Shown: positions 1-22,347 of the stretch, one piece after another
How the letters are laid out: every line of letters begins with the position of its first letter
How positions within the stretch are numbered: position 1 is the first letter of the stretch
Origin: a virus
Taxonomy: Duplodnaviria > Caudoviricetes
Strand: one strand, 5' to 3'
Virus record (IMG/VR): IMGVR_UViG_3300005611_000001
DNA length: 64,000 nt
Translations under genes and position numbers: made by a program
The notes under the pieces: model-generated
Databases searched by the model: none
What the model was told of the DNA's origin: nothing
What the model saw: the letters and a program-made list of their open reading frames with translations, nothing else

Positions 1-192
1 TAAAGTTACTATCTTTTTTAGAAGTTTTGTATGTTTCTGAGGCCAGTACCACTTCTTTTGTAGCCTCCAGCCGTCAATAATATCCCCAACAAGATACAAC
101 TTTTCTGGTTGAACAGAGCACAAAAACTCATAGCATTGTTCAGCTTTTGCGTGTCGAGAACCTAAATGAATATCAGAAATAAAAACTATCAT
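1..192 (-). CDS. plcP: PlcP-like / LpxH-family metallophosphoesterase, N-terminal 64 aa only (runs off the window)
   Basis: Not in ORF track. Manual translation from ATG at 192: MIVFISDIHLGSRHAKAEQCYEFLCSVQPEKLYLVGDIIDGWRLQKKWYWPQKHTKLLKKIVTL; DxHLG and LVGDIIDGW..W.WPQ.H motifs as in alphaproteobacterial PlcP. Confidence 0.75.
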   Translation of the reverse strand, partial: MIVFISDIHLGSRHAKAEQCYEFLCSVQPEKLYLVGDIIDGWRLQKKWYWPQKHTKLLKKIVTL

Positions 193-281
193 AAGTAACC
201 TTATAAAATGCTTCTTTCCCTACTCGAGGTTTACTAAGTCCCTGATTTTTTCAAGTATGAATAGGAAAAGAAGCAATACAT

Positions 282-587
282 TTAATCTAATAAAGCGTTT
301 AGAGGATCTTTTATCCATTTTTCAAAAAACTCCGTTTCCCTTCTGTTTTGTTCCAGCAAGTCATCTTCCAGAAGTTCTTTGCGCTGAGGAGGCATTTGTC
401 TTAGTTGTATGAACTCAGCACTCGAAAATAGGGGTTTCTTGCCTGGATAAGTTCCACGGACTTCATAATAATAATTCATTGGGTCTGAGCGAGACCCTTC
501 GGGATCGAGTAGTTCGAGCGACCCCGAGATAGAGCATCCGCCTAGCAACGCAAATCCTAAGAGGTATGCTTTGCTACAGCTTGACAT
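282..587 (-). CDS. hypothetical protein, possible lipoprotein
   Basis: LLGFALLGGC lipobox-like N-terminus; in line with minus-strand block. Confidence 0.5.
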   Translation of the reverse strand: MSSCSKAYLLGFALLGGCSISGSLELLDPEGSRSDPMNYYYEVRGTYPGKKPLFSSAEFIQLRQMPPQRKELLEDDLLEQNRRETEFFEKWIKDPLNALLD

Positions 588-1069
588 AGTTTAATAAAGT
601 ATTTATTATCATAATGTTGTTTCATCATATTAATATGTTTATGAACAACTTGAACATTTCCTTCTACATAACCCTTAGAAGAATCAATTCTATCCAAAGA
701 TACTGTAATATTATTAACAGGAATACCTTCCCAGTCAATTGGCACGCCTGAAAGAGCGCAGCAGCAATTATTCTTTTCCCATAACTCTTGCACATATTCT
801 GGAGTTATAGAGAACTCTAATCCTCTGGTTTCTGCGCCTACCTTAAACTTATTAAAGTGGGATATTCTAACCTTACCTACAAAACCTCTATGGCAGTTCT
901 CAGTTTTTCTATTAGAACACTTTTTGCAGGTTTTTCCTAGCCGAAAAGATTCAATGGCATAATTTCTTCTTAGGTAATCTTGCATTTCTCCGCATTCTGG
1001 GCACGGCTTACACCATCTTCCATCTTCTCTTTGAAAAACTTCAGGCGGTAATTCTAGTGCTTTTGGCAT
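557..1069 (-). CDS. HNH-family endonuclease with N-terminal CxxC pairs
   Basis: SLDRIDSSKGYVEGNVQVVHKHIN motif; CPEC/CKKC. Confidence 0.75.
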   Translation of the reverse strand: MPKALELPPEVFQREDGRWCKPCPECGEMQDYLRRNYAIESFRLGKTCKKCSNRKTENCHRGFVGKVRISHFNKFKVGAETRGLEFSITPEYVQELWEKNNCCCALSGVPIDWEGIPVNNITVSLDRIDSSKGYVEGNVQVVHKHINMMKQHYDNKYFIKLCQAVAKHTS

Positions 1070-1116
1070 ATTTAGTCTCCTTTTTTATGCTATTTTGATT
1101 AATTTACCACTTTACC

Positions 1117-1145
1117 ATAATAGCACAATAGACTAAAAATGTCAA
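1117..1145 (-). promoter_or_regulatory. sigma70-type promoter for HNH gene
   Basis: TTGACA-17-TATTAT on minus strand with A-rich upstream element. Confidence 0.7.
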
Positions 1146-1189
1146 AGAATATTTTTGCTTAGTTAGTAATAAAAACCTATACAGCGGGG

Positions 1190-1480
1190 CTACCATTTAA
1201 TTTTGTTGGCCCACCAGGCTGCACTCATTTTGCCCTTTGCGATATTTCTGGCATGCCGAGCTTTGAAAGAGGCGCGCTTCTTTTTCATTGCTTCGCTTTC
1301 GCCTTTCTTAGGCTTGCCTGCTGTTTTTGCGCCTTGCTGACCGAATCGAATGGTTTTTACCTTGCTACCCACCTTTGCAACCACAATGTGAGATTTTTTG
1401 GGATGGCTGGGAGTGCGCTTCGGCTTGTTGTAGCCTTTTACGCCTGCTCGCTTCAATCTGGAGTCTGCTTTACGAGGCAT
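1190..1480 (-). CDS. small highly basic conserved phage protein
   Basis: 96 aa K/R-rich; IRFGQQG...SFKARH...SAAWWANKIKW family motif. Confidence 0.75.
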   Translation of the reverse strand: MPRKADSRLKRAGVKGYNKPKRTPSHPKKSHIVVAKVGSKVKTIRFGQQGAKTAGKPKKGESEAMKKKRASFKARHARNIAKGKMSAAWWANKIKW

Positions 1481-1734
1481 TATCTTCTCAATTTTGCTCT
1501 ATTTGTACGTTTGTTGTACTTATAGGCCCTTGCAGGACGTCCAGAGGCTTTTGCAGCCCTTGCTTTTGCTCTCTGGCCTGGAGTCATTGCGTTTCTTCGT
1601 CGTCCTTTTGCAGTAAGTTTAGTACCTTTGAGTAATCCAGCTTTATTTAAAAGGCCATACGCGGCAGTTTTGGGGTTCTTGACCCCCTTTCCGCGCAGCT
1701 GGCGCATAAGGCGAGTTACAATTTTAGCGGGCAC
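1480..1734 (-). CDS. small highly basic protein
   Basis: 84 aa, K/R-rich, no acidic residues; GTG start coupled to neighbours. Confidence 0.7.
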   Translation of the reverse strand: MPAKIVTRLMRQLRGKGVKNPKTAAYGLLNKAGLLKGTKLTAKGRRRNAMTPGQRAKARAAKASGRPARAYKYNKRTNRAKLRR

Positions 1735-1870
1735 GCTTCTTTCTTTTCATAATTGCTCGCTGAAGAGCCATCGGCAGCTTTTTCTGCTTTGCTGTCAAGC
1801 CCATAGACTTCTTGCCGCCTTTCCGCTTTTTGCCGCCCATCGGCTTTTTGTTACCATAATGTCCTGGCAT
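1724..1870 (-). CDS. 48-aa highly basic protein
   Basis: Not in ORF track: MPGHYGNKKPMGGKKRKGGKKSMGLTAKQKKLPMALQRAIMKRKKRAR, RBS GGAG upstream. Confidence 0.7.
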   Translation of the reverse strand: MPGHYGNKKPMGGKKRKGGKKSMGLTAKQKKLPMALQRAIMKRKKRAR

Positions 1871-1880
1871 TTACTTTCTC

Positions 1881-2603
1881 CTAAGCTCCGTCGACGAGAA
1901 TAATGTCGAACGCACAAGTAACTTTAAAGTTATTATTTGCTGTAGTAAAGCGAATGTCAATATCCGATTTTTCTGAAATTCTTAAAGGTACGGGAAAGTC
2001 ATAACGATAAGAGTTATCATATAGTTCTGCTATATGAGCGACTCGAAAACCTCCTTCTCCGAAAATTCGAGCCATCATCGTAATTTGCCCGTCGCCGCCC
2101 TTGGAAATGGAAGAGTCTCCGCAAAGAAGATACCCCGTCTTGCCTGCGGGAACTGTATAAACTCCCATAAGACTTTGCCCTCGTCCAGCAGCAATCTGTG
2201 CTACGACGGTTGCTCCGATGCTGGCATTTACAGTTCCTGCTACTCCCCCATTTGAAGTTCCGTACATACGAAAGACTCGAATAAAACTATTTTGAGTAGT
2301 AGCATTCGTGGGGGTACCGTCAGCCGCAGTAAGAACTACAACTTCTCGAAGAGGATTATAGTTTGCATCGAGACCTTCAATTGCTACGCTCTCTCCAGTA
2401 TCGTCATCCGTAGAAGAAATTACATCCAACGCAGTAGCGGTAGCTAAAGTTCCCCAAGGATAAATACCCCCAACCGTCCAAAGAGTCTCCGTTCCTTGAT
2501 CACAGTCAAAATTTGCACCAAACTTATGAATAATACTTGCACCAGGAACGAGCCCTCTTGCAATGTTGAGATAATTCCACTCTACAAAACTATTTCTTGA
2601 CAC
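1881..2603 (-). CDS. conserved beta-rich phage protein (possible virion component)
   Basis: HKFGANFD...ETLWTVGGIYPW motif; GTG start at 2603 preceded by GGAGA. Confidence 0.65.
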   Translation of the reverse strand: MSRNSFVEWNYLNIARGLVPGASIIHKFGANFDCDQGTETLWTVGGIYPWGTLATATALDVISSTDDDTGESVAIEGLDANYNPLREVVVLTAADGTPTNATTQNSFIRVFRMYGTSNGGVAGTVNASIGATVVAQIAAGRGQSLMGVYTVPAGKTGYLLCGDSSISKGGDGQITMMARIFGEGGFRVAHIAELYDNSYRYDFPVPLRISEKSDIDIRFTTANNNFKVTCAFDIILVDGA

Positions 2604-3183
2604 CTGAATCTCCGTATTCAAACATTTCCAGGTCTTTGGCAAATTTCTCTGCAACCTTCAAAGCGGTTTGTATGCTATAATACTCTCGCCAAGGGCGATG
2701 AGTAGAAGAGTTAATAAGTTTTAACTTTGGAAGACCAAACCATTTCATCATATTCTCCCAGTCTTGTTCTAGTGTCTCAAACTTAATGAGATAATCCCAG
2801 CAGGGAATATGAAGATGCATTGGCCTAAAATGAATATTGTGTTCCTCAAAAGGGAGTTCACACACTCGATCAATAAATTCATCAAAAGGCATCTTTGCGT
2901 AAAAACCCTTCGTGTCTGTGATACTGCTTTTACCGCCTTCCCAGAGTTTTTGTTTCCAGCAAGACACTAAGCGATCATAAGGATTTCTTACGCAAGCTAC
3001 CTTAAAAAGAGGGCTGAAAGGAATCTCTTCAAGAGGGACTCTTTTCCAGCCTCCATGTAGCTTGTCTGGGTGAGTACTTCCGCCTGCCCACTCACGAATA
3101 GCTGTTTTCATAGCGCTATTCGCAGCTTTCGGCGTAAACATCAAAAGAAACTTATTTTCTGCGACGAGGTTTAAATCCGCCAT
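2590..3183 (-). CDS. PAPS-dependent sulfotransferase (Sulfotransfer_2-like)
   Basis: FTPKAANS (5'-PSB-like) and VRNPYDRLVS (3'-PB) motifs. Confidence 0.8.
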   Translation of the reverse strand: MADLNLVAENKFLLMFTPKAANSAMKTAIREWAGGSTHPDKLHGGWKRVPLEEIPFSPLFKVACVRNPYDRLVSCWKQKLWEGGKSSITDTKGFYAKMPFDEFIDRVCELPFEEHNIHFRPMHLHIPCWDYLIKFETLEQDWENMMKWFGLPKLKLINSSTHRPWREYYSIQTALKVAEKFAKDLEMFEYGDSGVKK

Positions 3184-3275
3184 ATTCAATTGCTCTTAGT
3201 AGACGAACCATTTTACCTGCACTGCTTTTAGATTTGGCTGTCGCTATTTTCTTTCCGGTTTTCTTGTAAACGGTC

Positions 3276-3671
3276 TTACCTCTTACGACGTAGGGCATCT
3301 TTTAATTCCAATACTAAAGACCAGAAAAGTTTTCCGATGAGTATGAAACGAGGGTAGACCCCTTTAAAATCATGAAGTTTCATTTCTGGAACTAGAGCTC
3401 GATAAAAGTTATCGATGTATTTACCTTGGACTTCAAGAACCGCGTGACCTCGGCCTTTCTTAGTAGTAACGTACCACATTTTGTAGTACCCGGTCATCCA
3501 ACGCCAAAAGAAAGTTTTCCAGCTTCCAGAGTGCAGATAAGAAATTGTAAGAGCATAGTCCTCACAATCTCCTTGCATATCGGAACCCATTACTTCCCAG
3601 CGATCAATACCTTCGTCTTTTTTATATTTAAACTTAGCGTTTACTGCGTCGATTGCGTCTTGAAGTTCCAA
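3276..3671 (-). CDS. transglutaminase-like cysteine protease (BTLCP/C93-like)
   Basis: GDCEDYA and GHAVL catalytic motifs. Confidence 0.75.
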   Translation of the reverse strand: MELQDAIDAVNAKFKYKKDEGIDRWEVMGSDMQGDCEDYALTISYLHSGSWKTFFWRWMTGYYKMWYVTTKKGRGHAVLEVQGKYIDNFYRALVPEMKLHDFKGVYPRFILIGKLFWSLVLELKDALRRKR

Positions 3672-3849
3672 GCCTCACCCTTTCATTTACCAGCGCTTGA
3701 GGAATGCGTTTTCCCTCTTTATATAATTTGGCAATTCTTTTAATTACAGACGCAAGGCGAACTCGTTCTCCGCCCTTTACTCCGCTAAGATACTTCTTCG
3801 GAATTTTACTTTTTGCGTCTTTTGGTACGCGTCTTCTTTTTTGCGGCAC
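3634..3849 (-). CDS. small highly basic protein
   Basis: 71 aa K/R-rich, overlaps neighbours in operon fashion. Confidence 0.65.
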   Translation of the reverse strand: MPQKRRRVPKDAKSKIPKKYLSGVKGGERVRLASVIKRIAKLYKEGKRIPQALVNERVRLGTSRRNRRSKR

Positions 3850-4075
3850 TTTTGTTTCTCGTACGACGAATATCGGTGTCGTGCTTGCGAGAACCTCGCA
3901 AAAACGAATTCACACGAGCATAGGCCCATCTCTGCATTGTCATGCCTGGACGAGACCCACTCGAAAGAAAGGCACCTTGCCCACGACTATATACTTTTAC
4001 AAGATCTCCGGTCGTAAACTTGGTGCCCTTTGCTTTTTGTGCGAGTGTCTTTCGTACAGTCGCGGAAACAGCCAA
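3806..4075 (-). CDS. basic conserved phage protein (DUF5824-like)
   Basis: LVKVYSRGQGAF..GSRPG...WAYARVNSF motif; basic C-terminal tail. Confidence 0.7.
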   Translation of the reverse strand: MAVSATVRKTLAQKAKGTKFTTGDLVKVYSRGQGAFLSSGSRPGMTMQRWAYARVNSFLRGSRKHDTDIRRTRNKSAAKKKTRTKRRKK

Positions 4076-4360
4076 TTAGCCTCTCCGAACCATCCGAGTA
4101 CGACGGCGACGGCGAGCAGGTGCAGCACCGATGCCCCGTACAGAAGTTTTAAAGCTGCCGGTCCGGGGGGTCGCTGCTTTCGTCGTCCGAGTGTTCCGAC
4201 GCACTGCTGTCGAGCCCGTCGAGGCCACTGAGGTCACTTGCGTCCCCGCTGCTCGGTTCATCTCCCGAGAGAGGCCCCGACCCTGCGTGTGCTTCGGTAG
4301 TTTCAGAGAGACGTGCGGACGAGGAACCCCCGTCAGAACTCCGCCTGTTCGTGTTGCCAT
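4076..4360 (-). CDS. small Arg/Thr-rich basic protein
   Basis: 94 aa, AGGAG RBS, ends ARRRRRTRMVRRG. Confidence 0.65.
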   Translation of the reverse strand: MATRTGGVLTGVPRPHVSLKLPKHTQGRGLSREMNRAAGTQVTSVASTGSTAVRRNTRTTKAATPRTGSFKTSVRGIGAAPARRRRRTRMVRRG

Positions 4361-4450
4361 TGTATTCTCCTAAAAAGGCTTCAGCCTCTTTCTTTGTAGG
4401 AAATCTATATAGGCGGTCAGTGCGAACGCGCCAGTATCCTCTACGATAAA

Positions 4451-4654
4451 TCATTGTTTCACCAGTATTTCGAGTTGTGCATGAACTCTAGCAACATCGA
4501 CTTGAAGCTGGTTTACTTTTTCAAGCATTACTTCTTGCTTGTTGAGAGCTTCTTCATGAGCCTCTACTTTTTCGGAAAGTGCAGAAGCCCACCAAATTAC
4601 AGCAGCAAACTCAAGAGTAAAGCCCAGAAGTAGGCTAAGACTTAGTTTCTCCAT
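4451..4654 (-). CDS. membrane-anchored coiled-coil protein
   Basis: N-terminal hydrophobic helix then heptad-like tail. Confidence 0.6.
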   Translation of the reverse strand: MEKLSLSLLLGFTLEFAAVIWWASALSEKVEAHEEALNKQEVMLEKVNQLQVDVARVHAQLEILVKQ

Positions 4655-4661
4655 GAAGTAA

Positions 4662-5297
4662 TTACCCTACAACAAACTTGTTGCTCTTAGCCAAATTTTC
4701 CTTGGCGGGAAGGTATTGTAAGTTACTCAAAACATGAAGACCGCTCACTAGAGGGTTCTGTAGCGGAACGATGTGGTCTACATGGTGTCCCTTCGGGCAG
4801 TTAGCGTAAAAGAGACGTATTTGTTCTTCTTGAGAAGGAATCACCATTCTATTCAACAAGATTGCTTTTCTTTTTGACGCATGGTGTTTTGATACTTCTG
4901 GATGTCTTTTATAGTACTTTTTTGACCTTTCATTGTCGCACTTAGAGCACCAAATACTAAGACCGTTAGACGTAGAGCTCCAGTTACCGAAAGCGTTGTT
5001 TTCTTTGTATTTATTACAGCTTCCACAATATTTGAAATCGCTCAAGTCTAAAAAATAAGTTTTCCAGCTTTTTCCTTTTTCTTTGTTTGCATCGGGGAAA
5101 GTTTTGTTAGTTATTCTTGAAACTGTGTCTTTATTAACATACAGCTTTTTTGATATACTTTCAATATCCCCTTCGTTTAAGTACAAAGAAACTAACTCGT
5201 ATAAAGTGACTTCGGGGCTCTTTCCGCGTTTTCTTTTTACAACCTCTTTTCCAGAACGGCTTAGACAGGTTAAAATATTATTTATTACTTGATTCAT
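4662..5297 (-). CDS. HNH homing-type endonuclease
   Basis: [35 protein letters not shown] motif; CxxC pairs. Confidence 0.85.
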
Positions 5298-5733
5298 CTA
5301 TACCACCCAGCAATTTTGTCATAAGTTTGCCGTAGTTGCCTTGCCCAAATGGAGTTTCATTTATCTGGACATTTGTCTGATTTTTAATCGTTGTTTGCTG
5401 TTGCTGAGCCTTTAGCTCATCCATTCTCATCTTGTGCGCAAGTTGAATGAGGTCCACAAGGTCTTTGCTGGTATACATATCCGATTCTTGCGCTTCTTCA
5501 AACTTTTTCTCAATAATCTCATCCAGAAGGCTACCTAAACGAAAACGATTGCGATAGCCTAGGTCAAGATAAACTTGATCAATATAAGAACGCACTTCTC
5601 GACGATCAAGAATCTCAGCAGCCTTATCTGGAGAGATCGCCAGAGAGGACGCCGCCTCTTTTAGCGATCCAAACGACAGATAAGCGTTGGCCAGCTCGAG
5701 ACCTTCTGGAGAGATCGTCGGGAGTTTATTCAT
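5278..5733 (-). CDS. terS: terminase small subunit, T5 type
   Basis: [12 protein letters not shown]...[19 protein letters not shown]...[13 protein letters not shown]...NQTNVQIN...NYGKLM matches my recollection of T5 TerS throughout. Confidence 0.85.
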
Positions 5734-6041
5734 TACCAGGGCAGACCTGTTGCAGTCTTGGGAGCTTTTTGCTCTTCGATTTGTGCGGCGAGAGAGGTCT
5801 CTGTTGCTTCTTTGTCAATGGTCTGGAAGCACCAGTCGAGAACATCACTTTCAGTAAGGCTTTCAAAAGCAACAAAGCCATCAGCATCTGCATCGGGAGT
5901 GAATCCACAGGTACCGTAGGAAGAAGCATAAAACTTATCTTCGCCTACAGTTTCTGTTGCGTCTACACGCCAATGGGCTACGGTGACTCCACCGTCTGCG
6001 GTATTTCTTTCAAGCTGAGCGATGCTCCAGGTAACTTCCAT
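5733..6041 (-). CDS. conserved acidic phage protein of the type usually found next to tail-fibre genes
   Basis: TWSIAQLER...VAHWRV...LTESDVLDW...GLPW. Confidence 0.7.
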   Translation of the reverse strand: MEVTWSIAQLERNTADGGVTVAHWRVDATETVGEDKFYASSYGTCGFTPDADADGFVAFESLTESDVLDWCFQTIDKEATETSLAAQIEEQKAPKTATGLPW

Positions 6042-6085
6042 TTCTTATCTCCAAAAAATCGAATTAAAATTCGGTTATGTTGTAT

Positions 6086-6114
6086 ATTGTAATCTGTTGT
6101 GTGGCCTAGGTCAA
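6086..6114 (-). promoter_or_regulatory. sigma70-type promoter for the terS block
   Basis: TTGACC-17-TACAAT, A-tract upstream. Confidence 0.7.
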
Positions 6115-6142
6115 GTGATATTTTTTAGAACCTTCGGCCGAA

Positions 6143-6340
6143 CTATAATACTTTTGCTCTTGCCCACGCATTACACTGATGAATGGCAGATACTCTTATC
6201 ATTGGTGAGGGAACAGCACGATTGCTAAAAGAATTCATGCACTGTTCCCGTAAATGACGAACTTGAGCGAGTTGTGCTTCTTCCACTATTGAAGTCGAAG
6301 CACACCCGCCGAGAAGAAATATAATTAAATACTTAGCCAT
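6143..6340 (-). CDS. small lipoprotein
   Basis: MAKYLIIFLLGGC lipobox. Confidence 0.65.
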   Translation of the reverse strand: MAKYLIIFLLGGCASTSIVEEAQLAQVRHLREQCMNSFSNRAVPSPMIRVSAIHQCNAWARAKVL

Positions 6341-6872
6341 CTGACAAAGGATTATCCAGCGCTTTTTGTAGGGTATCTCTTAAATCTTCGTCTAGCTTTT
6401 GCATCTTCATATCAATACGATCTTCTACTTCTCGCATTGTATTTCTAACATCTTTTTCTGACTCTCGAGAAAGGTCAGATACTTGTCGTAGTCGAGAATC
6501 AATCTCGTCTTGTACATCTTTCATTCGCTTGCTTGTATCTTCTGTCACTCTTTCTACTCGAAGAATGTCGTCTCTGAGACTATTCTTAATATCTCTTGTA
6601 TAATCAATTGCATCATCAAGTTTACGCTCAATTGCAACATTGCGAGCTTCTACAGCTTCGATGTCAAGTACCTCTAGCTTTTCTGCCATTTCCTGAAAAG
6701 CCTTATAGGACTCGAAACCTGCGTAAAGTGTTCCTAGCAGAGAGCCAAGAAGTGCAAATGCTGCTCCAATCGTGGTAGGCGTCATCGAAATACCTGCCAC
6801 TGTAAATTTTGTGTTTTTGAGATTTTCAATCTCTTCTTCGACTTTCTCTACTCCGTCCCCCAGATCAGCCAT
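6333..6872 (-). CDS. membrane-anchored long coiled-coil protein
   Basis: TM segment IGAAFALLGSLLGTLYAGF followed by ~120 aa charged heptads. Confidence 0.7.
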   Translation of the reverse strand: MADLGDGVEKVEEEIENLKNTKFTVAGISMTPTTIGAAFALLGSLLGTLYAGFESYKAFQEMAEKLEVLDIEAVEARNVAIERKLDDAIDYTRDIKNSLRDDILRVERVTEDTSKRMKDVQDEIDSRLRQVSDLSRESEKDVRNTMREVEDRIDMKMQKLDEDLRDTLQKALDNPLSDG

Positions 6873-6874
6873 AT

Positions 6875-7297
6875 TTAGTTCTCAAACTTGAGGTTATTGA
6901 GGGCGTTTATTTCCGCTCTCAACTTCTGCACCTCCAATCGTCGTCTTTCCAGCTCTAACTGGTAAAGAGTATTACAATTTAATCTCTCTGCGGGTGCTCC
7001 AATCGGTATCGTTATCTTGCCGTACACACCCACATCTTTCATCTGGTCATTTGTAATTACAGGATCCACAAAAGTGTTTCCAAGTTGATTTCCCTGATTA
7101 ATAATACCCACTACTCCAAACTCAACATTCGTCGCGGACCCAATGGCACTAGAGCAATCTAAGTCGCCCGCTCGAAATCTATCTGTTTGAAAACTTTGCT
7201 GAGTCTGAGGAATTGCAAGGTTCAAAGAACTTGTCTGTGCAAATACGCTCAAAGGTAGCAAAAAAAGTATTAATCTTTTCATTTTACCTTGGAACAA
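6875..7297 (-). CDS. exported protein, Cys-flanked beta-hairpin plus C-terminal coiled coil
   Basis: Signal peptide MKRLILFLLPLSVFA; DLDC...RLNC. Confidence 0.7.
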   Translation of the reverse strand: MFQGKMKRLILFLLPLSVFAQTSSLNLAIPQTQQSFQTDRFRAGDLDCSSAIGSATNVEFGVVGIINQGNQLGNTFVDPVITNDQMKDVGVYGKITIPIGAPAERLNCNTLYQLELERRRLEVQKLRAEINALNNLKFEN

Positions 7298-7716
7298 ATT
7301 TTAGAAGAAATTACAGTACCTTTTACCCCGCGCAGAATCTTGGACATTGAGCAAATATACATTACACGCGTCGAGTCAATCTCTCTTATATAAATGTCAA
7401 TCTTACGTCGACCTAGATGCGGTATTTTTACAATTCGTTCTGCTGTTGCAAAAGGTACTGGAAGCCAGTCTGCGTCATAAACATCAAACTGGTAGTATTC
7501 AATCTCTCGTCGACTGTTAAACAGCTCCATACGAGTTTGCAGTATGCCCGGCATGTAAGAGGGCAAAAGCTGCGGATAGGTAGGAGTAAACTGATGTGCG
7601 CTAGCACTCGATGCGATTAAAGCGCAACACACTCCGCATTTACCACGGAGGTATATTCGCCTCCAGGAAACGCCTTGTCCGCACCATAGTCTGCTTGTGA
7701 ACTTACTCCAAACCAT
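7279..7716 (-). CDS. exported beta-rich protein (fimbrial-chaperone-like?); real start probably GTG 7632
   Basis: ASA-HQFTP cleavage site; alternating hydrophobic strands; two C-terminal Cys. Confidence 0.6.
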   Translation of the reverse strand: MVWSKFTSRLWCGQGVSWRRIYLRGKCGVCCALIASSASAHQFTPTYPQLLPSYMPGILQTRMELFNSRREIEYYQFDVYDADWLPVPFATAERIVKIPHLGRRKIDIYIREIDSTRVMYICSMSKILRGVKGTVISSKICSKVK

Positions 7717-8108
7717 ACTGTACCTGCTACTGTGAGATCAAATTCTGACACATTGTTGTATGTACGCTTATTCGTGTCATAGTCCGCCTGAAGAGGATCT
7801 GTAACTTCTGCAACGCTCACCGACCCCGTCCAGTTTACAACGTCACTCAACGCGGGGCTGGAAGAAAACACTTCGGGTGTGGAAATCACAGCCTTGTAGA
7901 AGTTCGCACTGATTACATCAAACCGAATCACCGGCTCCACACCTCCGTCTGCCGCAGCAGTGCTCAAGCGACTCGGAGTCGGGTTGCCATACACGCCGGG
8001 AGTATCTGTTACAATTACACACTTGGAAGCAACCGTTCCCATAATGGGGGTGTCTTCCGCTAGCACAGGCCCCGCCAAGAAAGCGATTGCCAAAGCCAAC
8101 TTTTTCAT
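7617..8108 (-). CDS. exported pilin-like (Csu/spore-coat-U-like) protein
   Basis: Signal peptide, N-terminal GTVASKC, C-terminal PGGEYTSVVNAEC resembling chaperone-usher pilin ends. Confidence 0.55.
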   Translation of the reverse strand: MKKLALAIAFLAGPVLAEDTPIMGTVASKCVIVTDTPGVYGNPTPSRLSTAAADGGVEPVIRFDVISANFYKAVISTPEVFSSSPALSDVVNWTGSVSVAEVTDPLQADYDTNKRTYNNVSEFDLTVAGTVWFGVSSQADYGADKAFPGGEYTSVVNAECVAL

Positions 8109-8891
8109 TTATTTCTCCTCATACTGTGCGTTTACCATTTCATCATGTAAACGCTGTTGGGCAAAGTTCATTCTACGTCCTTGCCTATTATCAGAAATGT
8201 CCTTCCCAGGAAGAAAAGAGTCTTGTATTGATCCACCCGGCATCGCAACGTAGTAGCTCGCTGGAACAATATCGAGTGCAAAAAATTGTGCTGCAAGCTC
8301 CGCTTGAGCAACGGCGTTCGACCCCGCTTCTCTTGTTCTTTCTTTTACCTGCATCTGGCGGCGCTCGAGATCCTCTTGATTCTGATCTCGTAGAGCGTCC
8401 AGAGTATACTCAACCGAAGGAATCTCTACCGAAGGCGCTGGAGGAATATAGTTAGGACATCCAAGAGTCGGCTCAGCGCAGGAATCGTACTGATAGGTAT
8501 AGACGATGTTTTCGTTGAATACAGTTCCCTGGCCTTGTAGGCTCAAAGCACCAGCACCCATAGTCTCCCCTAAAATATTCAGAGGTGCGCCTCTTGTAAT
8601 TGTGTTGCCTGGCAATCCATTCCAGTTATCTGTGAAAGTAAATAGTCGAGAACCGGCTACTGAGTTCTGCTCAATATTGACTTGAAAATCGTCTGCGGGG
8701 TTTTTGCTCACGGCATAACGCCAGGCGATTCCATTTACGACAAGTCCTGTCTCTGGAGGAAGCACATTCTGCATATTCCAGGTTCGGCCGAGCGCGACGA
8801 CATTCGGCGTACTCTCGAAAACCTCAGATTGCGAGTAGCAGTGCGAGGAGGCTAGCAATGCCAATACCACCAAATGCAGTCTTCTTACCAT
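8109..8891 (-). CDS. exported hypothetical protein
   Basis: Signal peptide; beta-rich N-domain ending YDSC...CPNY. Confidence 0.7.
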   Translation of the reverse strand: MVRRLHLVVLALLASSHCYSQSEVFESTPNVVALGRTWNMQNVLPPETGLVVNGIAWRYAVSKNPADDFQVNIEQNSVAGSRLFTFTDNWNGLPGNTITRGAPLNILGETMGAGALSLQGQGTVFNENIVYTYQYDSCAEPTLGCPNYIPPAPSVEIPSVEYTLDALRDQNQEDLERRQMQVKERTREAGSNAVAQAELAAQFFALDIVPASYYVAMPGGSIQDSFLPGKDISDNRQGRRMNFAQQRLHDEMVNAQYEEK

Positions 8892-9330
8892 TTGAAATTT
8901 CCTTCTCCGGCTGCTCTTCTTCGTGTGCGAGCCATGCAGCTTTTGCCTCTGGACCGATTAGCCCATCGTAGGGGCAGGGTGTCCCGGCATTCATCATGGC
9001 GTCGAACACACGCTTATCCTGGCACATCGTAGAGACGGCGGCAACTTTCATACCCATATCATAGAGCGTCTTTGCGTTCTTGAGGCGCTCGCAGTTCATG
9101 TCTCGTACAGTTGCGCCTGCACTGAGACCAAGAATTTGTGTCTGGACTGCGCCTGCCACTCCGACTGTGCAAAGATCCGAATTACTGAAGTTCATTGTCG
9201 GAATGATTGCGGACGGAGGCGGACTCTCTACGGTTGTCCGAACTGTACTATCTGTTGTGGCCTCCGTCACGATGGGCGCTTCTTGTGCGAGAGCGGTAAT
9301 CGGAAGAAGAAGTAAAATTAGTTTTTTCAT
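8824..9330 (-). CDS. exported protein with Cys-flanked Gly-rich hairpin and C-terminal TM anchor
   Basis: MKKLILLLLPITALA; SPPPSAI..DLC...DMNCERLK...MCQD...GTPCP; hydrophobic C-terminus. Confidence 0.75.
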   Translation of the reverse strand: MKKLILLLLPITALAQEAPIVTEATTDSTVRTTVESPPPSAIIPTMNFSNSDLCTVGVAGAVQTQILGLSAGATVRDMNCERLKNAKTLYDMGMKVAAVSTMCQDKRVFDAMMNAGTPCPYDGLIGPEAKAAWLAHEEEQPEKEISNGKKTAFGGIGIASLLALLLAI

Positions 9331-9364
9331 AATTTGTTTTGGGGGTGGTCCTATCATGTATCAA

Positions 9365-9393
9365 ATTATAAGGGGTTGTGGGGCGGTTGTCAA
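9365..9393 (-). promoter_or_regulatory. consensus sigma70 promoter for exported-protein operon
   Basis: TTGACA-17-TATAAT. Confidence 0.85.
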
Positions 9394-9491
9394 GGATTGT
9401 TTTTGCTTGGGTTCGGTTTTGTAGGCTATAGCGCCTTTTTGGAAGAAGAATTTCTTGCGTGTTACACGTGTGGGTGTGTGGCGAGCAACTA

Positions 9492-9510
9492 AATGAGAAT
9501 GAGTCTCATT
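9492..9510. promoter_or_regulatory. Fur-box-like inverted repeat
   Basis: AATGAGAAT-G-AGTCTCATT (9-1-9, one mismatch). Confidence 0.45.
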
Positions 9511-9537
9511 ACCGCCCCCCGTTATAATATATAACTA

Positions 9538-9564
9538 GCCCCCGTTATATATTATAACGGGGGC
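9538..9564. repeat. 12-bp-arm inverted repeat near putative genome end
   Basis: GCCCCCGTTATA-TAT-TATAACGGGGGC; a partial copy lies immediately upstream (~9516-9535). Confidence 0.85.
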
Positions 9565-9797
9565 GCGTTATTACTTGCGGTAATCACGCCTTATATATGT
9601 AACTAGATGCCCTTTATAATAATAAGAACGCCATGCTACAACGGGCGACTTATAATAATAAGCGTTAGTTATTAGGCGCATTATTTTCTCCAAATAATCG
9701 GATCAGTTATAATTGCGTAAACAAGCGCGCCTAGGGGGATTAAAACCATAATAGCCATAATAATATAAAGCATATTTAAACCCTGTTATAAGGCGCC

Positions 9798-10418
9798 TTA
9801 TAAGGCGCCTTTATTATATAGAAACTGCGCAATAGGTAATTCATAATCACGCGCATCTTCCAAAGCTGTATGCGGCTCCGCTTCTAATTGTTCGCCTATA
9901 ATATAGCGCGCTACATTGTCGGCGGTCATTTTAGGCTTACCCGTTTTAGTTAACGCATTATTAGCATGGCAATATTTAATATAATTCGCGTCATTACTAA
10001 AATAAGCGCGAGCCTTTTGAAGCAAACAAAAACGCTTTCTGAATAATCCTAAATTAATATCTGTCGCCATACACTTTGGATAATCAAAAGAGATATTAAA
10101 TGCGGTGACTGCCGGATTATAGCGCCCCACATTTTTAGATAACCAAATATTAATTAAATGATTAGATGCAATAGAACGCGAACCGGATTCAATGCGTGAC
10201 ATATAATGTTTACGGCGTGCCCTAACATTTTGAATTGACCAAAACTCGCCAGGCTTAGAATGGGGATTGGACCATAATTCCATTTTATCAAACTGATTAT
10301 ATATAAGCGTTCCAATTTCATCTAATACTTCACCGGAATTTAAATCGGCAATTACTGCTCCGAAATCGGCAACAGTATTCCCCGAGGTTGTTTCCGTATC
10401 CACTAAACAGATAATCAT
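9798..10418 (-). CDS. DEDDh 3'-5' exonuclease
   Basis: ExoI VDTETT, ExoII AFNISFD, ExoIII HTALEDA. Confidence 0.85.
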   Translation of the reverse strand: MIICLVDTETTSGNTVADFGAVIADLNSGEVLDEIGTLIYNQFDKMELWSNPHSKPGEFWSIQNVRARRKHYMSRIESGSRSIASNHLINIWLSKNVGRYNPAVTAFNISFDYPKCMATDINLGLFRKRFCLLQKARAYFSNDANYIKYCHANNALTKTGKPKMTADNVARYIIGEQLEAEPHTALEDARDYELPIAQFLYNKGAL

Positions 10419-10858
10419 TTTAAAGCCTCATTTATTAAGGTTGCATCTAGGGCGTTGATGCCCAACTCTCGGGCCATTGCTAGAACCGAGTGATTGTCAT
10501 CATAGAACGTAACGCCGCGCAGGTCCACTCCCAAGGAAAGCAGTTTTTCTCGCTTCAATTCTGCATCCGAACGATTGTCCCCTTCACTGCGCGCCAGAAT
10601 TACTGGCGCTTCTAGGCCATGCTTGCGAAGGTATGCCCTGTCAGCATCACCTAAAACTCGAGCGGTACATATTGCCACCTGCTTATCCGTGGCGAGAGCA
10701 TGGCGCATGAGGCGAGCCAGGGGAAGCAGCGAATCCTGCTCAATTTTTTCCGGCGTGGAATGTTCGCGCCATGCGTCTAGGTCCAGGGAACCATCGGGGC
10801 ACGCCAGCTGGCGATGGCGAGAGCAAACCACGGTCCCATCTAAATCAAAAATAAGCAT
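10415..10858 (-). CDS. dmp: T5 Dmp-like deoxynucleoside-5'-monophosphatase (HAD); start corrected to ATG 10858
   Basis: IFDLDGTVVCSRHR...DGSLDL...QDSLLPL...ICTARV...YLRKHGL...YDDNHSVL; GGAG RBS before 10858. Confidence 0.8.
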   Translation of the reverse strand: MLIFDLDGTVVCSRHRQLACPDGSLDLDAWREHSTPEKIEQDSLLPLARLMRHALATDKQVAICTARVLGDADRAYLRKHGLEAPVILARSEGDNRSDAELKREKLLSLGVDLRGVTFYDDNHSVLAMARELGINALDATLINEALK

Positions 10859-11055
10859 TATATTAGGCTCCAGTAGCCAACAATGGAAACAATATTTAGG
10901 CCCACCAAATTCCAAGCCCGGAGCCTGGCTGCTTGCGTGGTGAGTAGGGCGAGCCCTACGCAAGCGAGCCAGTAACCCCTGACCCCTGGCATATGGTAGG
11001 GAGCGAGGGCGAGCGCGCAAGCGCCCACCCACCCCATAACGTTATCCCAGCGCAT
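10858..11055 (-). CDS. small membrane protein
   Basis: Mostly hydrophobic 65 aa, coupled to dmp. Confidence 0.6.
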   Translation of the reverse strand: MRWDNVMGWVGACALALAPYHMPGVRGYWLACVGLALLTTQAARLRAWNLVGLNIVSIVGYWSLI

Positions 11056-11341: not shown

Positions 11342-11384
11342 ATTGAAACTCCTTAATTGAAACGTTTTCCTTTACTGCCCGAGC

Positions 11385-11413: not shown

Positions 11414-11469
11414 GGTTTTTATCATTGAAATTTTCGATGATAAAAGCGCTTTTCATCGAAAAAAACTGC

Positions 11470-11935: not shown

Positions 11936-12070
11936 TTGCATTCAACAACTATTACATTCAACAACTATTGCATTCAACAACTATTACATTCAACAACTAT
12001 TGCATTCAACAACTATTGCATTCAACAACTATTGCATTCAACAACTATTGCATTCAACAACTATTGCATT
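11936..12070. repeat. tandem array, 8 full + 1 partial 16-bp units
   Basis: Unit TT(G/A)CATTCAACAACTA; units 2 and 4 carry A at position 3; no spacers. Confidence 0.95.
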
Positions 12071-20601: not shown

Positions 20602-20835
20602 TCAATCCGCAGCCTGACCCAGAATCTTTACTAACTCATCATAGCCACCAATCCAGTGCCCGTCGATAAGTATCTTCGGATAAGTACGACTTCTAGGAAA
20701 CTCCTCACGAGCCTCGCTTTCATCAAAGTCATAATGAAGAAGCCGGTACTTATAAGGTAGTCCGGCTTCTTCAAGTAATATTTTGCTTTCTTCGCAGAAC
20801 TTACAGAAGTTCTTGCCCCAGATTTCTATGTCCAT
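20602..20835 (-). CDS. glutaredoxin-like protein
   Basis: CKFC active site, TYPKI..DG.WIGGYDEL. Confidence 0.85.
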   Translation of the reverse strand: MDIEIWGKNFCKFCEESKILLEEAGLPYKYRLLHYDFDESEAREEFPRSRTYPKILIDGHWIGGYDELVKILGQAAD

Positions 20836-21206
20836 AGCGTCGCCAAGTATTTCCCGAAGAGTTCGTAACCTCTTTGAATTCTAGCTTCGTACTCTTCCGT
20901 TAAGTTTACGCCCCCTTCAAACAGAGTGCCGGGCTCACGATATATGGGAGCTTCCAGAGTTACCTGTTCAAAGGTCCAAATTAATTCATTAAGAAGCCAT
21001 TGCCAGCGATCATAATCGTACTCGTTCATGTTTCTTAGATCCACGGGTACGTCAGAATTGTCGACTGTGCCGAAACTCACATCGTTTTCCTGCAACTTGA
21101 GTAACATGGCATAGACTAAAGGAGCAAGTGTACTTTCAAAAGACATGATGTCTTCATCTTCTACATTTAACTCTTTTACTTGCAGATTATGTCTTCGGTA
21201 AATCAT
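20826..21206 (-). CDS. conserved phage hypothetical protein
   Basis: TLAPLV..ML..L...DVP..L...RWQWLLNELIWTFE...RIQRG.ELFGKY..LW. Confidence 0.7.
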   Translation of the reverse strand: MIYRRHNLQVKELNVEDEDIMSFESTLAPLVYAMLLKLQENDVSFGTVDNSDVPVDLRNMNEYDYDRWQWLLNELIWTFEQVTLEAPIYREPGTLFEGGVNLTEEYEARIQRGYELFGKYLATLWT

Positions 21207-22183
21207 ATGTGAGCCAGCCTTTCCATAAAGGTGGAATAACATTTTTCCCAGGACCACTCAGGTCCGGAAACTCGTCCAAGACTTTTGCATTTTTCTATAG
21301 CTTCTTCTAAGTTATTGCTGAGATATCCTGTTTTATTTATCTCTACAATATCGCAGGGTCCGGGTACTGGATAAGCTGCAACCGGAGTTCCTAGTGCTAA
21401 ACTTTCGATAAGTACAATTCCAAAGGTATCGGAGCGGCTGGGAAAGCAAAAAACTTCAGAAGAAGCATATTCATCTGCAAGTTCTTGACCTTTTTTGTAC
21501 CCAACAAAATTTACATTAGAATATTTTTGTTCGAGTATTTTTCTCTCGGGGCCGTCGCCTACAATATGAATGTCATACTTCGATCCCAATACACATAGGT
21601 CTTCTAAGTTTTTCTCTTTGCTAACTCTTCCAACGTACAGCACACGATTTTTAACTGGCTTTTTATTACTGATAAATTGAGCCTTATCTACCCCACGGCT
21701 CCATAATATTAAACTACCATTAAATTTTTTATCACGAAGCTGCAAGCGAATGGACTCTGTAGGAACCAAAGTATTTGCCGCTCTAGAGTGAAACCATCTT
21801 AGATACTTCCACGTAATACCAGAGGGAATTTTATACATCTTTTCTAAAAACATAGGAAATTGAGTATGATAGCTAGTAGTAAATTTCCAGTTTTTCTTAA
21901 TACAATAAAGTCGAGTTAAAAGCCCAAGAGGCCCTTCTGTAGCGATATGAATATGAGTAGGCTTATAGGAAGAAATTTCTTGAAAAACCTTCAAAGGCTG
22001 AACCGTAAGCCTTACTTCGGGGTACCCAAAAGCAGAAACATTGCGAAAGTCATCAGGAGTAAGAAGCCGAAGCTCCGCATAGTCTGGCATAAAAACTTTG
22101 GCAAGTTCTTGAATTTTATTTAGAGTTATTGCAACTCCGTTGACTTGACTTGTTAAGTTGTCACTTACTACTAAAACTCGCAT
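21203..22183 (-). CDS. GT4 glycosyltransferase, Agt-like (candidate diacylglycerol glycosyltransferase)
   Basis: QVNGVAITL, HIATEGPLG, FTTSYHT.FP, WSRGVD, LYVGRVSKEKN, VGDGP, FPSRSDTFG.V.IESLA.GTPVAAYPVPGP. Confidence 0.85.
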   Translation of the reverse strand: MRVLVVSDNLTSQVNGVAITLNKIQELAKVFMPDYAELRLLTPDDFRNVSAFGYPEVRLTVQPLKVFQEISSYKPTHIHIATEGPLGLLTRLYCIKKNWKFTTSYHTQFPMFLEKMYKIPSGITWKYLRWFHSRAANTLVPTESIRLQLRDKKFNGSLILWSRGVDKAQFISNKKPVKNRVLYVGRVSKEKNLEDLCVLGSKYDIHIVGDGPERKILEQKYSNVNFVGYKKGQELADEYASSEVFCFPSRSDTFGIVLIESLALGTPVAAYPVPGPCDIVEINKTGYLSNNLEEAIEKCKSLGRVSGPEWSWEKCYSTFMERLAHI

Positions 22184-22347
22184 TTCTTCTTGTTCCATCT
22201 TTTAATAGCAGCCTTACGAGCACGACGACGAGCGTCACTCGGTTTCTCATAAAACTGGCGCTCACGATATTCCTGGAGCTTCTCGCTCACACCGCGTTTT
22301 AGCTTTCTTAGTGCGCGATCAACATTGTTCTTCACTTGTACTTTCAA
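22171..22347 (-). CDS. rpsU: ribosomal protein bS21
   Basis: Not in ORF track (58 aa, TTG start, AGGA RBS): MKVQVKNNVDRALRKLKRGVSEKLQEYRERQFYEKPSDARRRARKAAIKRWNKKKCEF. Confidence 0.9.
   Translation of the reverse strand: MKVQVKNNVDRALRKLKRGVSEKLQEYRERQFYEKPSDARRRARKAAIKRWNKKKCEF

What the first reader, a model, noticed from the sequence alone, without database searches (positions are those of the whole stretch)
1..192. Phage-encoded PlcP-like phospholipase C: first half of a phosphorus-starvation lipid remodelling pair
Seen: an ORF missed by the track whose 64 visible residues carry DIHLG and LYLVGDIIDGWRL..KWYWPQ.H. Established: in marine and alphaproteobacterial heterotrophs PlcP (often annotated as LpxH-like) strips phospho-headgroups from phospholipids under P limitation to yield diacylglycerol, which Agt-type GT4 enzymes convert to P-free glycolipids. 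Inference: the same phage module also carries an Agt-like GT4 (21203-22183), so it may harvest host membrane phosphate for nucleotide synthesis while keeping the membrane intact. I am not aware of this pair being characterised in a T5-like phage.
Basis: partly seen in the sequence, partly recalled or inferred. Interest (0 to 1): 0.85.

Follow-up and report, generated by a model that had tools for sequence, protein, structure and literature searches.

The report
Phage PlcP phospholipase with Agt glycosyltransferase
A marine T5-like phage carries copies of the two bacterial enzymes that replace membrane phospholipids with phosphorus-free glycolipids during phosphate starvation, so the phage probably takes phosphate from its host's membrane; databases mislabel the first enzyme as the lipid A enzyme LpxH.

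Summary
Observation confirmed. Window 1-192 (- strand) encodes the first 64 residues of a 242-aa metallophosphoesterase. I recovered the whole gene from an identical metagenome contig.

It belongs to the PlcP family, not LpxH:
- It scores far below both LpxH model cut-offs.
- It has GNHD/GHIH and the WYWPQ insert instead of LpxH's GNRD/GHTH.
- In trees it sits with alphaproteobacterial, SAR11 and Pseudomonas PlcP-type proteins. True LpxH lies across a very long branch.

The GT4 at 21203-22183 belongs to the Agt/GTcp diacylglycerol glycosyltransferase clade. It is 35-43% identical to the GT4 directly downstream of plcP in 52 of 80 bacterial loci, and the experimentally defined Agt residues are conserved. 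Of the 80 viral contigs with the nearest GT4, 79 have PlcP immediately upstream.

In this phage the two genes lie 21 kb apart in different operons. No Pho box was found.

plcP is an accessory insertion placed exactly in front of the large terminase gene. The closest relative and 64 of 64 other marine T5-like contigs lack it.

Both genes most likely lie on one T5-like genome. The window beyond about 24.8 kb is T4-like, so the window is probably chimeric.

Function is inferred, not assayed. No paper on viral PlcP was found. This scan has noted similar cassettes on other phage DNA.

The parts
1..192 (-). plcP, codons 1-64 of 242. The rest lies beyond the window start. The full gene is L001:10878-11606 (+), and its last 25 nt overlap the large terminase start.
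193..281 (-). Upstream intergenic region with an AAGG-type ribosome-binding site. In the closest relative, L184, the same sequence sits directly in front of the TerL ATG. No Pho box here.
282..587 (-). 101-aa ORF with a lipoprotein-type signal (LLGGC). It is 90% conserved in L184, where it directly precedes TerL. Probably co-transcribed with plcP.
   Evidence: the lipobox is my reading of the sequence
557..1069 (-). 170-aa ORF with CxxC pairs and an HNH-like C-terminus (my reading; no Pfam hit). Absent from L184, so it is a second insertion/deletion beside plcP.
1117..1145 (-). Sigma-70-like promoter match (TTGACA-17-TATTAT, 11 of 12, TG extension). Candidate promoter for the 170-aa ORF, lipoprotein, plcP and terL.
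   Evidence: consensus match only
10415..10858 (-). T5-type deoxynucleoside-5'-monophosphatase (PF26880). Marks this part of the window as T5-like.
11936..12070 (.). Unique tandem array, 16 bp x 8.4 copies. Both k141 metagenome contigs, the plcP contig and the GT4 contig, end inside it with compatible unit patterns. It is the only physical link between the two genes.
20826..21242 (-). 138-aa ORF of unknown family overlapping the GT4 stop. Homologues recur near viral PlcP-glycosyltransferase cassettes in about 16 of 160 loci.
21203..22183 (-). Agt/GTcp-clade GT4 glycosyltransferase, 326 aa. An alternative ATG at 22198 gives 331 aa.
22171..22347 (-). Ribosomal protein bS21 gene overlapping the GT4 start. 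Same operon as the GT4.
   Evidence: L098 9837-10013, mapped onto the window

Best explanation
The ORF is the start of a phage-encoded PlcP, a binuclear-metal phosphoesterase of the LpxH-like superfamily. In bacteria PlcP works as a phospholipase C: it cuts the phosphorylated head group off PE, PG or PC and leaves diacylglycerol.

The same T5-like genome encodes an Agt/GTcp-type GT4. In bacteria this enzyme glycosylates diacylglycerol from UDP-glucose, UDP-glucuronate or UDP-galactose.

Proposed mechanism (inferred): during infection PlcP frees phospho-head groups. Phosphatases release phosphate from them for the phage's de novo nucleotide synthesis. The GT4 converts the diacylglycerol into phosphorus-free glycolipid, so the membrane holds until lysis.

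Shown here: family membership of both proteins, conservation of their catalytic residues, their tight linkage in other viruses, and the accessory, strain-variable status of plcP in this lineage.

Inferred: substrate, timing and purpose.
For: PlcP identity
- P0001 scores 49.7 and 39.5 bits on the two LpxH equivalog models, whose cut-offs are 134 and 190.
- That is the score level of the non-LpxH paralogue (39-42 bits) in genomes that also hold a true LpxH at 302-336 bits. Agrobacterium has no match at all, and the Pelagibacteraceae genome has only the paralogue at 39 bits.
- The best 80 cellular relatives (43-54% identity) are mostly Alphaproteobacteria, including A. tumefaciens and Pelagibacteraceae, plus Pseudomonas.
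- In the tree LpxH is split off with support 100 on a very long branch. P0001 sits inside the PlcP-type family, in a clade of phage and metagenome sequences (support 96).
- All metal-ligand motifs are invariant in the alignment: D7, H9, D37, N77-H78-D79, H112, H198 and H200.
- Family-specific GNHD, GHIH, WYWPQ and YWSLS motifs are shared with cellular PlcP and absent from LpxH.
- The AlphaFold2 model (pLDDT 88.9) has a metallophosphoesterase core plus a helical cap at residues 113-188. LpxH is the nearest solved fold, at TM about 0.6 and 17-21% identity.

Agt identity
- In 52 of 80 bacterial loci a full-length GT4, 35-43% identical, lies directly downstream of plcP.
- The residues shown by mutagenesis in SAR11 GTcp are conserved: the His/Asp dyad, GRVSKEKN, FPSRSDTFG, the Arg of WSRG, and Trp (bioRxiv 10.1101/2021.03.25.437072).

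Linkage in viruses
- Of the best 80 IMG/VR PlcP contigs, 36 also carry this GT4, mostly directly downstream, and 21 carry a GT2 beside PlcP.
- Of the best 80 viral GT4 contigs, 79 of the 79 that can be judged have PlcP within 1.4 kb upstream.

Links to phosphorus and lipids in relatives
- pstS lies next to plcP in pelagiphage Mosig and in L141. phoH lies within 10 kb in 8 loci. A DesA-type desaturase lies nearby in 6.

Accessory status
- L184 (TerL 97% identical) lacks exactly the plcP ORF. None of 64 relatives has it.
Against: - No biochemical data exist for any viral PlcP or Agt.
- No Pho-box-like site lies near plcP or the GT4. The E. coli-type consensus gave 4 matches in the window against 6.2 expected by chance.
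- plcP sits in what looks like the late packaging operon, while the GT4 sits among early-type genes. Co-expression is therefore not evident.
- The two genes are joined only through a tandem repeat that short-read assemblies could not cross, and read laying did not bridge it.
- 23 of 80 viral PlcP loci have no glycosyltransferase in the stretch examined. PlcP may therefore act alone or for another purpose.
- The window holds no pstS or phoH.
Confidence: 0.7

Rival explanations
1. PlcP and the glycosyltransferase remodel the envelope for a purpose other than phosphorus supply. Candidates are excluding superinfecting phages, changing receptor display, or weakening the inner membrane ahead of lysis.
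For: - plcP lies next to a lipoprotein gene and the late terminase gene, with no Pho box.
- Membrane lipid composition is known to affect phage attachment (PMC9938194, PMC9804370).
- 23 of 80 viral PlcP loci have no partner glycosyltransferase in the stretch examined.
Against: - Relatives repeatedly sit next to pstS or phoH.
- The GT4 is almost obligatorily linked to PlcP in viruses. That fits replacement of lost phospholipid.
- Cellular orthologues are phosphate-starvation genes (PMC4796936).
Confidence: 0.15
2. The two genes belong to different phage genomes, and the pairing is an assembly artefact.
For: - The window is clearly mixed. It is T5-like up to about 24.6 kb and T4-like beyond about 24.8 kb, where gp32 and gp5/6/25/53 baseplate genes appear.
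- It holds two different tRNA-Thr(TGT) genes.
- In the ENA assembly plcP and the GT4 lie on separate contigs that meet only in a repeat.
- Laid contigs did not bridge the repeat.
Against: - Both ENA contigs, from the same sample, end in the same unique 16-bp array with compatible unit patterns. Merged, they give about 10 units, longer than k = 141, which explains the break.
- The tetranucleotide signature of segment 12.1-24.2 kb correlates 0.65-0.73 with the T5-like parts and 0.29-0.56 with the T4-like part.
- Homologues of ORFs 12366-12662 and 14822-15139 lie beside the T5 dNMPase in bona fide T5-like contigs.
Confidence: 0.1
3. It is a true LpxH (UDP-2,3-diacylglucosamine hydrolase) or another lipid A or LPS enzyme, as GenBank and virome AMG pipelines annotate its relatives.
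For: - Relatives are annotated this way in phage Mosig, in S-SRM01 and by JGI.
- LpxH is the nearest solved fold.
- Viral 'lpxH' is listed as an LPS AMG in PMC10653327.
Against: - Both LpxH models score far below their cut-offs.
- The protein has GNHD where LpxH has GNRD, plus a different cap and inserts.
- It is separated from LpxH in both trees.
- Its cellular kin occur in LpxH-less Alphaproteobacteria, or alongside a true LpxH.
Confidence: 0.03

Closest known systems
Bacterial PlcP-Agt lipid-remodelling pathway (S. meliloti SMc00171; Phaeobacter MED193_17359; SAR11 HTCC7211 PlcP with Agt/GTcp; P. aeruginosa PlcP with Agt1/2)
   Same: - Same two protein families.
- All PlcP metal motifs and family-specific motifs are present.
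- The Agt catalytic dyad, UDP-sugar motifs and diacylglycerol-binding residues are conserved.
- PlcP is 43-54% identical and the GT4 35-43% identical to the cellular operon members.
   Different: - Carried by a virus.
- PlcP is shorter (242 aa against about 265-315), lacking the N- and C-terminal extensions.
- The genes are 21 kb apart rather than in an operon.
- No Pho box was detected.
- plcP is fused into the terminase transcription unit.
LpxH (UDP-2,3-diacylglucosamine diphosphatase, lipid A pathway)
   Same: Calcineurin-like metallophosphoesterase core with a helical lipid-binding cap. It is the nearest solved structure, at TM about 0.6.
   Different: - 17-21% identity.
- Fails both NCBIfam LpxH cut-offs.
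- GNHD instead of GNRD, GHIH instead of GHTH, a WYWPQ insert and a different cap sequence.
Phage PlcP homologues in T4-like marine and freshwater myophages (for example Pelagibacter phage Mosig Mosig_00120, annotated 'putative UDP-2,3-diacylglucosamine hydrolase')
   Same: Same viral PlcP radiation, 46-58% identity over the full length. They sit next to a GT4, a GT2, pstS or phoH.
   Different: - Those are myophages in which the partner glycosyltransferase is usually adjacent.
- Here the carrier is a T5-like siphophage, plcP is inserted before terL, and the GT4 is elsewhere in the genome.
Known phage phosphorus AMGs (pstS, phoA, phoH)
   Same: Host-derived phosphate-stress genes carried as strain-variable accessory genes by marine phages.
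   Different: Those act on external phosphate uptake or have unknown function. This pair would tap an internal pool, the membrane phospholipid.

Membership tests
PlcP (metallophospholipase C of the LpxH-like superfamily) | Calcineurin-like metallophosphoesterase with the complete set of metal-binding motifs (DxH, GD, GNH[DE], H, GHxH) | tested here: met
   Pfam Metallophos at E 1.9e-11. D7, H9, D37, N77-H78-D79, H112, H198 and H200 are invariant in a 32-sequence alignment.
PlcP (metallophospholipase C of the LpxH-like superfamily) | Phylogenetic placement with PlcP orthologues and apart from LpxH | tested here: met
   Trees. LpxH is split off with support 100 on a long branch. P0001 nests among proteins from Alphaproteobacteria (A. 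tumefaciens, Pelagibacteraceae), Pseudomonas and phages.
PlcP (metallophospholipase C of the LpxH-like superfamily) | Published operational criterion: BLASTP E < 1e-40 to Phaeobacter MED193_17359 (PMC4796936) | not tested
   The reference sequence was not obtainable with these tools. As a proxy, tblastn gives E 5e-79 to 3e-66 against the best 80 cellular loci, mostly alphaproteobacterial orthologues.
PlcP (metallophospholipase C of the LpxH-like superfamily) | Genomic association with a gene for synthesis of a non-phosphorus lipid (agt, btaAB and similar) | tested here: inconclusive
   The two genes are not adjacent in this phage. An Agt-clade GT4 lies 21 kb away, on what is probably the same genome. 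Adjacency holds in 57 of 80 viral relatives and 52 of 80 cellular relatives.
PlcP (metallophospholipase C of the LpxH-like superfamily) | PhoB/Pho-box control | tested here: not met
   With the E. coli-type consensus and up to 3 mismatches there is no site near plcP or the GT4. The window gave 4 matches against 6.2 expected. Pho boxes of the unknown host may differ.
PlcP (metallophospholipase C of the LpxH-like superfamily) | Phospholipase C activity yielding diacylglycerol | not testable with these tools
   Needs an enzyme assay or genetic complementation.
Agt/GTcp clade of GT4 (diacylglycerol glycosyltransferases) | GT-B GT4 domains | tested here: met
   PF00534 at E 4.9e-23 and PF13439 at E 5.9e-11.
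Agt/GTcp clade of GT4 (diacylglycerol glycosyltransferases) | His104/Asp256 catalytic dyad (Asp, not the usual Glu) and the UDP-sugar motifs GRVAxEKN and FPSxTDTFG | tested here: met
   The alignment with Pelagibacteraceae Agt orthologues shows TSYHT, GRVSKEKN and FPSRSDTFG. The motifs are defined in bioRxiv 10.1101/2021.03.25.437072.
Agt/GTcp clade of GT4 (diacylglycerol glycosyltransferases) | Diacylglycerol-binding residues Thr162, Arg163 and Trp320 | tested here: met
   WSRG (Thr replaced by Ser, Arg kept) and WSWEK (Trp kept).
Agt/GTcp clade of GT4 (diacylglycerol glycosyltransferases) | Well over 25% identity to clade members, which share less than 25% with other GT4 enzymes | tested here: met
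   35-43% identity over the full length to the GT4 next to plcP in 52 bacterial loci.
LpxH | Score above the curated cut-off of the equivalog models TIGR01854 and NF003743 | tested here: not met
   39.5 bits against 190.35, and 49.7 bits against 134. True LpxH proteins score 302-336 bits.
LpxH | GNRD motif (Arg80) and GHTH | tested here: not met
   P0001 has GNHD and GHIH.

The most novel reading that the evidence does not exclude
Phage-borne PlcP, with an Agt-type GT4 or an interchangeable GT2 partner, is a widespread and so far undescribed class of viral auxiliary metabolic gene. It would turn host membrane phospholipid into phosphate for phage DNA synthesis under phosphorus limitation. The 'lpxH' entries in virome AMG catalogues, now filed under LPS biosynthesis, would then be misannotated PlcP. 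The presence/absence polymorphism of plcP in front of terL in this T5-like lineage would be a natural test of its fitness value.
Probability: 0.5. Interest if true: 0.8.

Novelty: new variant of a known kind. Interest (0 to 1): 0.66.

Why it matters
Membrane phospholipid is a large, mobilisable phosphorus pool in ocean bacteria that are short of phosphate. If phages carry the host's own lipid-remodelling enzymes, infection could change the cell's phosphorus budget and the chemistry of marine lipids. It could also alter how susceptible the remodelled cell is to grazers and to other phages.

There is a practical consequence too. Viral 'lpxH' counts in AMG surveys would be assigned to the wrong pathway, and environmental plcP counts, which are used as a marker of bacterial phosphorus stress, would include viral copies.

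This T5-like lineage offers a clean comparison: near-identical genomes with and without plcP.

Tried and rejected
- No whole genome is held for the window.
- Megablast of window 1-6000 against GenBank phages found nothing.
- An exact 50-mer search in IMG/VR found nothing.
- The 331-aa GT4 start variant is not on record. The 326-aa form is.
- Read laying over window 9.5-14.5 kb gave only short Logan contigs. None bridges the tandem array, so it says nothing for or against linkage.
- The Pho-box consensus scan gave 4 matches against 6.2 expected, and none is near either gene.
- The window holds no homologue of the myophage GT2, the DesA desaturase, pstS or phoH.
- A single-sequence GT4 scan of IMG/VR found no close relative. 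The alignment-based scan did.
- GenBank phages hold no Agt-type GT4 above 30% identity.
- The GT2 partner's specificity could not be named. All its NCBIfam hits are below cut-off.
- Literature searches for viral plcP found nothing.
- I did not run complex prediction, because I make no claim that the two proteins bind.

Full report
**Observation.** The - strand of window 1-192 holds an ORF that starts at ATG 192 and runs off the window. Its 64 residues carry DIHLG and LYLVGDIIDGWRLQKKWYWPQKH. On its own the fragment is borderline for Pfam Metallophos (E 0.0012). No whole genome is held for the window. A look-up by identity of the neighbouring 170-aa protein found ENA contig ERZ27252103:k141_377486 (43 kb). 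That contig is identical to window 1-11069 and, over its first 11.6 kb, 99.99% identical to window 415-12029. It supplies the whole gene: 242 aa (P0001, L001:10878-11603). The gene's last 25 nt overlap the start of the large terminase gene. Behind that come a T5-type nicking endonuclease, portal, protease-capsid fusion, T5 p143, tail terminator, tube, a 1080-aa protein in the tape-measure position (my reading; no Pfam hit) and lambda-type tail-tip genes. TerL is about 50% identical to T5-like phages of enterobacteria and vibrios. This part of the window is therefore a marine T5-like siphophage.

**PlcP, not LpxH.**
- P0001 hits only generic Metallophos models in Pfam.
- It scores 49.7 and 39.5 bits on NCBI's two LpxH equivalog models, whose cut-offs are 134 and 190.
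- I searched TIGR01854 in five genomes that carry close cellular relatives. Two Pseudomonas genomes and one gammaproteobacterium have a true LpxH at 302-336 bits plus a second, sub-threshold protein at 39-42 bits, and that second protein is the phage protein's relative. Agrobacterium has no match. A Pelagibacteraceae genome has only the 39-bit protein.
- The best 80 cellular relatives (43-54% identity) are mostly Alphaproteobacteria, including A. tumefaciens, Rhizobium, Mesorhizobium, Bradyrhizobium, Rhodospirillaceae and six Pelagibacteraceae single-cell genomes, plus Pseudomonas. These are the groups in which PlcP has been characterised (PMC4796936, PMC9804370).
- In a 115-row tree LpxH is separated by a fully supported, very long branch. 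P0001 and its 66%-identical relative P0003 sit in a 28-member clade of phage and metagenome sequences (support 96) inside the PlcP-type family. A second tree with 83 viral sequences agrees.
- The alignment shows what separates the families. PlcP-type proteins, phage and cellular alike, share DxHLG, GDIIDGW...WYWPQxH, GNHDE, a YWSLSxYLK cap segment, GHIH and GDWVES. LpxH has GNRD and GHTH and lacks the insert. All metal ligands are invariant.
- The AlphaFold2 model (pLDDT 88.9) is a metallophosphoesterase core with a helical cap at residues 113-188. LpxH is the nearest solved fold, but only at TM about 0.6 and 17-21% identity.

**The GT4 is an Agt.** The 326-aa product of window 21203-22183 has GT4 domains. 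tblastn against the 80 bacterial plcP loci found a full-length GT4, 35-43% identical (E 1e-56 to 1e-80), directly downstream of plcP in 52 of them, including all six Pelagibacteraceae loci. This is the plcP-agt arrangement described by Sebastian et al. (PMC4796936). Wei et al. (bioRxiv 10.1101/2021.03.25.437072) defined the SAR11 enzyme GTcp by mutagenesis: a His104/Asp256 dyad, the motifs GRVAxEKN and FPSxTDTFG, and Thr162, Arg163 and Trp320 for diacylglycerol. The phage protein has TSYHT, GRVSKEKN, FPSRSDTFG, WSRG and WSWEK at those positions.

**Linkage in other viruses.**
- At least 577 IMG/VR contigs encode a PlcP relative. Among the best 80, 36 also carry this GT4, mostly directly downstream. 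A further 21 have an unrelated 235-aa GT2 next to PlcP, 23 have neither in the stretch examined, and 6 have a DesA-type desaturase nearby.
- Many of these contigs carry T4-like markers such as gp44, clamp, RegA, PolB, UvsX, RNR and PhoH.
- In the opposite direction, all 79 evaluable contigs among the 80 with the nearest viral GT4 have PlcP within -16 to +1359 bp upstream.
- On the PlcP tree the GT4 and GT2 partners alternate among close relatives. Well-supported branches force at least 10 changes for each. This suggests the two partners are interchangeable.
- pstS lies beside plcP in Pelagibacter phage Mosig and in L141, and phoH lies within 10 kb in 8 loci.
- None of the 80 bacterial loci has the GT2.

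**This phage is unusual.**
- The two genes are 21 kb apart.
- plcP follows a 170-aa HNH-like ORF and a lipoprotein gene, behind a sigma-70-like promoter match, and runs into terL.
- The GT4 lies in an operon with a bS21 gene, an unknown 138-aa ORF, a glutaredoxin-like gene and a MazG-like gene.
- No Pho box was found.
- Among 64 marine T5-like contigs (TerL 72-97% identical) with enough upstream sequence, none has plcP.
- In the closest one, L184, the shared intergenic region runs straight into the terL ATG. The 713 bp that make up the plcP ORF are missing, and so is the 170-aa ORF. plcP is therefore a strain-variable accessory gene inserted between the ribosome-binding site and terL.
- A more distant relative, L158 (TerL 58%), has TerS-PlcP-GT2-TerL.

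**Are the two genes on one genome?**
- In the ENA assembly the genes lie on two contigs of the same sample. Both contigs end inside a 16-bp tandem array at window 11936-12070, which occurs nowhere else in the window. Their unit patterns can be merged into about 10 units, longer than k = 141, and that explains the break.
- The tetranucleotide signature of window 12.1-24.2 kb correlates 0.65-0.73 with the T5-like segments and 0.29-0.56 with window 24.8-64 kb.
- Homologues of two ORFs from that segment lie beside the T5 dNMPase in bona fide T5-like contigs.
- Laid contigs did not bridge the array.
- I put the odds that both genes share one T5-like genome at about 0.9.

**The window is probably chimeric.** From about 24.8 kb on it is a T4-like myophage. 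It holds gp32, a T4 baseplate protein, gp53-, gp5-, gp25- and gp6-like genes and its own Thy1. It also holds a second, different tRNA-Thr(TGT). Two independent assemblies, ENA and JGI, continue differently beyond 24163. The T5-like contig already has a complete siphophage tail.

**Mechanism (inferred).** PlcP removes phospho-head groups from inner-membrane phospholipids. Phosphatases release phosphate for nucleotide synthesis. The GT4 glycosylates the diacylglycerol so the bilayer survives until lysis. From established knowledge of T5, not tested here: T5 dephosphorylates and discards host DNA breakdown products through its dNMPase, so it depends on de novo synthesis. A dNMPase gene is present at window 10415-10858.

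**Rivals.** They are envelope remodelling for exclusion or lysis, an assembly artefact, and true LpxH activity.

**Novelty.** GenBank phages hold only three distinct phages with a PlcP-like gene (four records), annotated as LpxH where annotated at all, and no Agt-type GT4 above 30% identity. Virome surveys list 'lpxH' as an LPS AMG (PMC10653327). I found no paper on viral PlcP. Earlier notes of this scan describe similar PlcP-glycosyltransferase cassettes in other, mostly jumbo, phages. The class is therefore not unique to this window. The T5-like carrier, the split arrangement and the precise presence/absence polymorphism are specific to it.

Noticed in passing
window about 24160-24800 (junction); 24800-64000: The window looks chimeric. 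Up to about 24.6 kb it is T5-like. Beyond about 24.8 kb it is a T4-like myophage, with gp32 at 29227-30156, a T4 baseplate protein at 31701-32393, gp53-like at 35402-36151, gp5-like at 37512-38381 and 40282-41745, gp25 at 42510-43265 and gp6-like at 43278-45065. The tetranucleotide signatures differ, and two independent assemblies (ENA, JGI) continue differently after 24163.
   Followed up: partly
window 11936-12070: A unique 16-bp tandem array (ATTRCATTCAACAACT, 8.4 copies; at least about 10 units when the two ENA contigs are merged) in an intergenic region next to the T5-type dNMPase gene. It breaks k141 assemblies. It could be an iteron or another protein-binding array.
   Followed up: partly
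window 17868-17942 and 25272-25347: Two tRNA-Thr(TGT) genes with clearly different sequences, one on each side of the suspected junction. This fits two genomes.
   Followed up: partly
window 52112-63856 (+) and 46455-51845 (+): A 3914-aa ORF with no Pfam hit, full of 24-nt and 84-nt periodic repeats (a YTGD/N-type motif). It follows a 1796-aa DUF4815 protein. Probably giant tail-fibre or adhesin proteins of the T4-like part.
   Followed up: no
window 22171-22347 (-): A phage-encoded ribosomal protein bS21 gene overlapping the start of the GT4 gene.
   Followed up: no
window 282-587 (-) and 557-1069 (-): A small lipoprotein-like ORF (lipobox LLGGC) is 90% conserved in relative L184, where it sits directly before terL. 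The neighbouring 170-aa HNH-like ORF is absent from L184, like plcP.
   Followed up: partly
L002, L004, L006, L104-L183 (viral loci): T4-like myophages carry PlcP translationally coupled to a 235-aa GT2 of unknown specificity; none of the 80 bacterial loci examined has this GT2. The GT2 and GT4 partners alternate among closely related PlcPs. A DesA-type acyl-lipid desaturase lies nearby in 6 of 80 loci.
   Followed up: partly
L141 (10001-12783); L008 = phage Mosig MT647606 93031-94866: A PlcP-GT4-PstS cluster in a 62-kb viral contig. In Pelagibacter phage Mosig, plcP is divergently adjacent to a pstS-like gene.
   Followed up: partly
window 20826-21242 (-); L098 4872-5408: A family of 138-178-aa proteins with no Pfam hit (C-terminal LFGKY..LW). 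It overlaps the GT4 stop here, has a paralogue in L098, and recurs near viral PlcP-glycosyltransferase cassettes in about 16 of 160 loci. Possibly a third component.
   Followed up: partly
window 2590-3189 (-): A sulfotransferase (PF03567, E 7e-15) among the late-region genes of the T5-like part.
   Followed up: no
L010 (JBCCBQ010000005.1, 348-kb contig of a 'Pseudomonadota' MAG): The best 'cellular' hit (54% identity) groups with phage Mosig in the first tree rather than with bacteria (unresolved in the second). The contig may be a large phage, or a prophage binned into a MAG.
   Followed up: no
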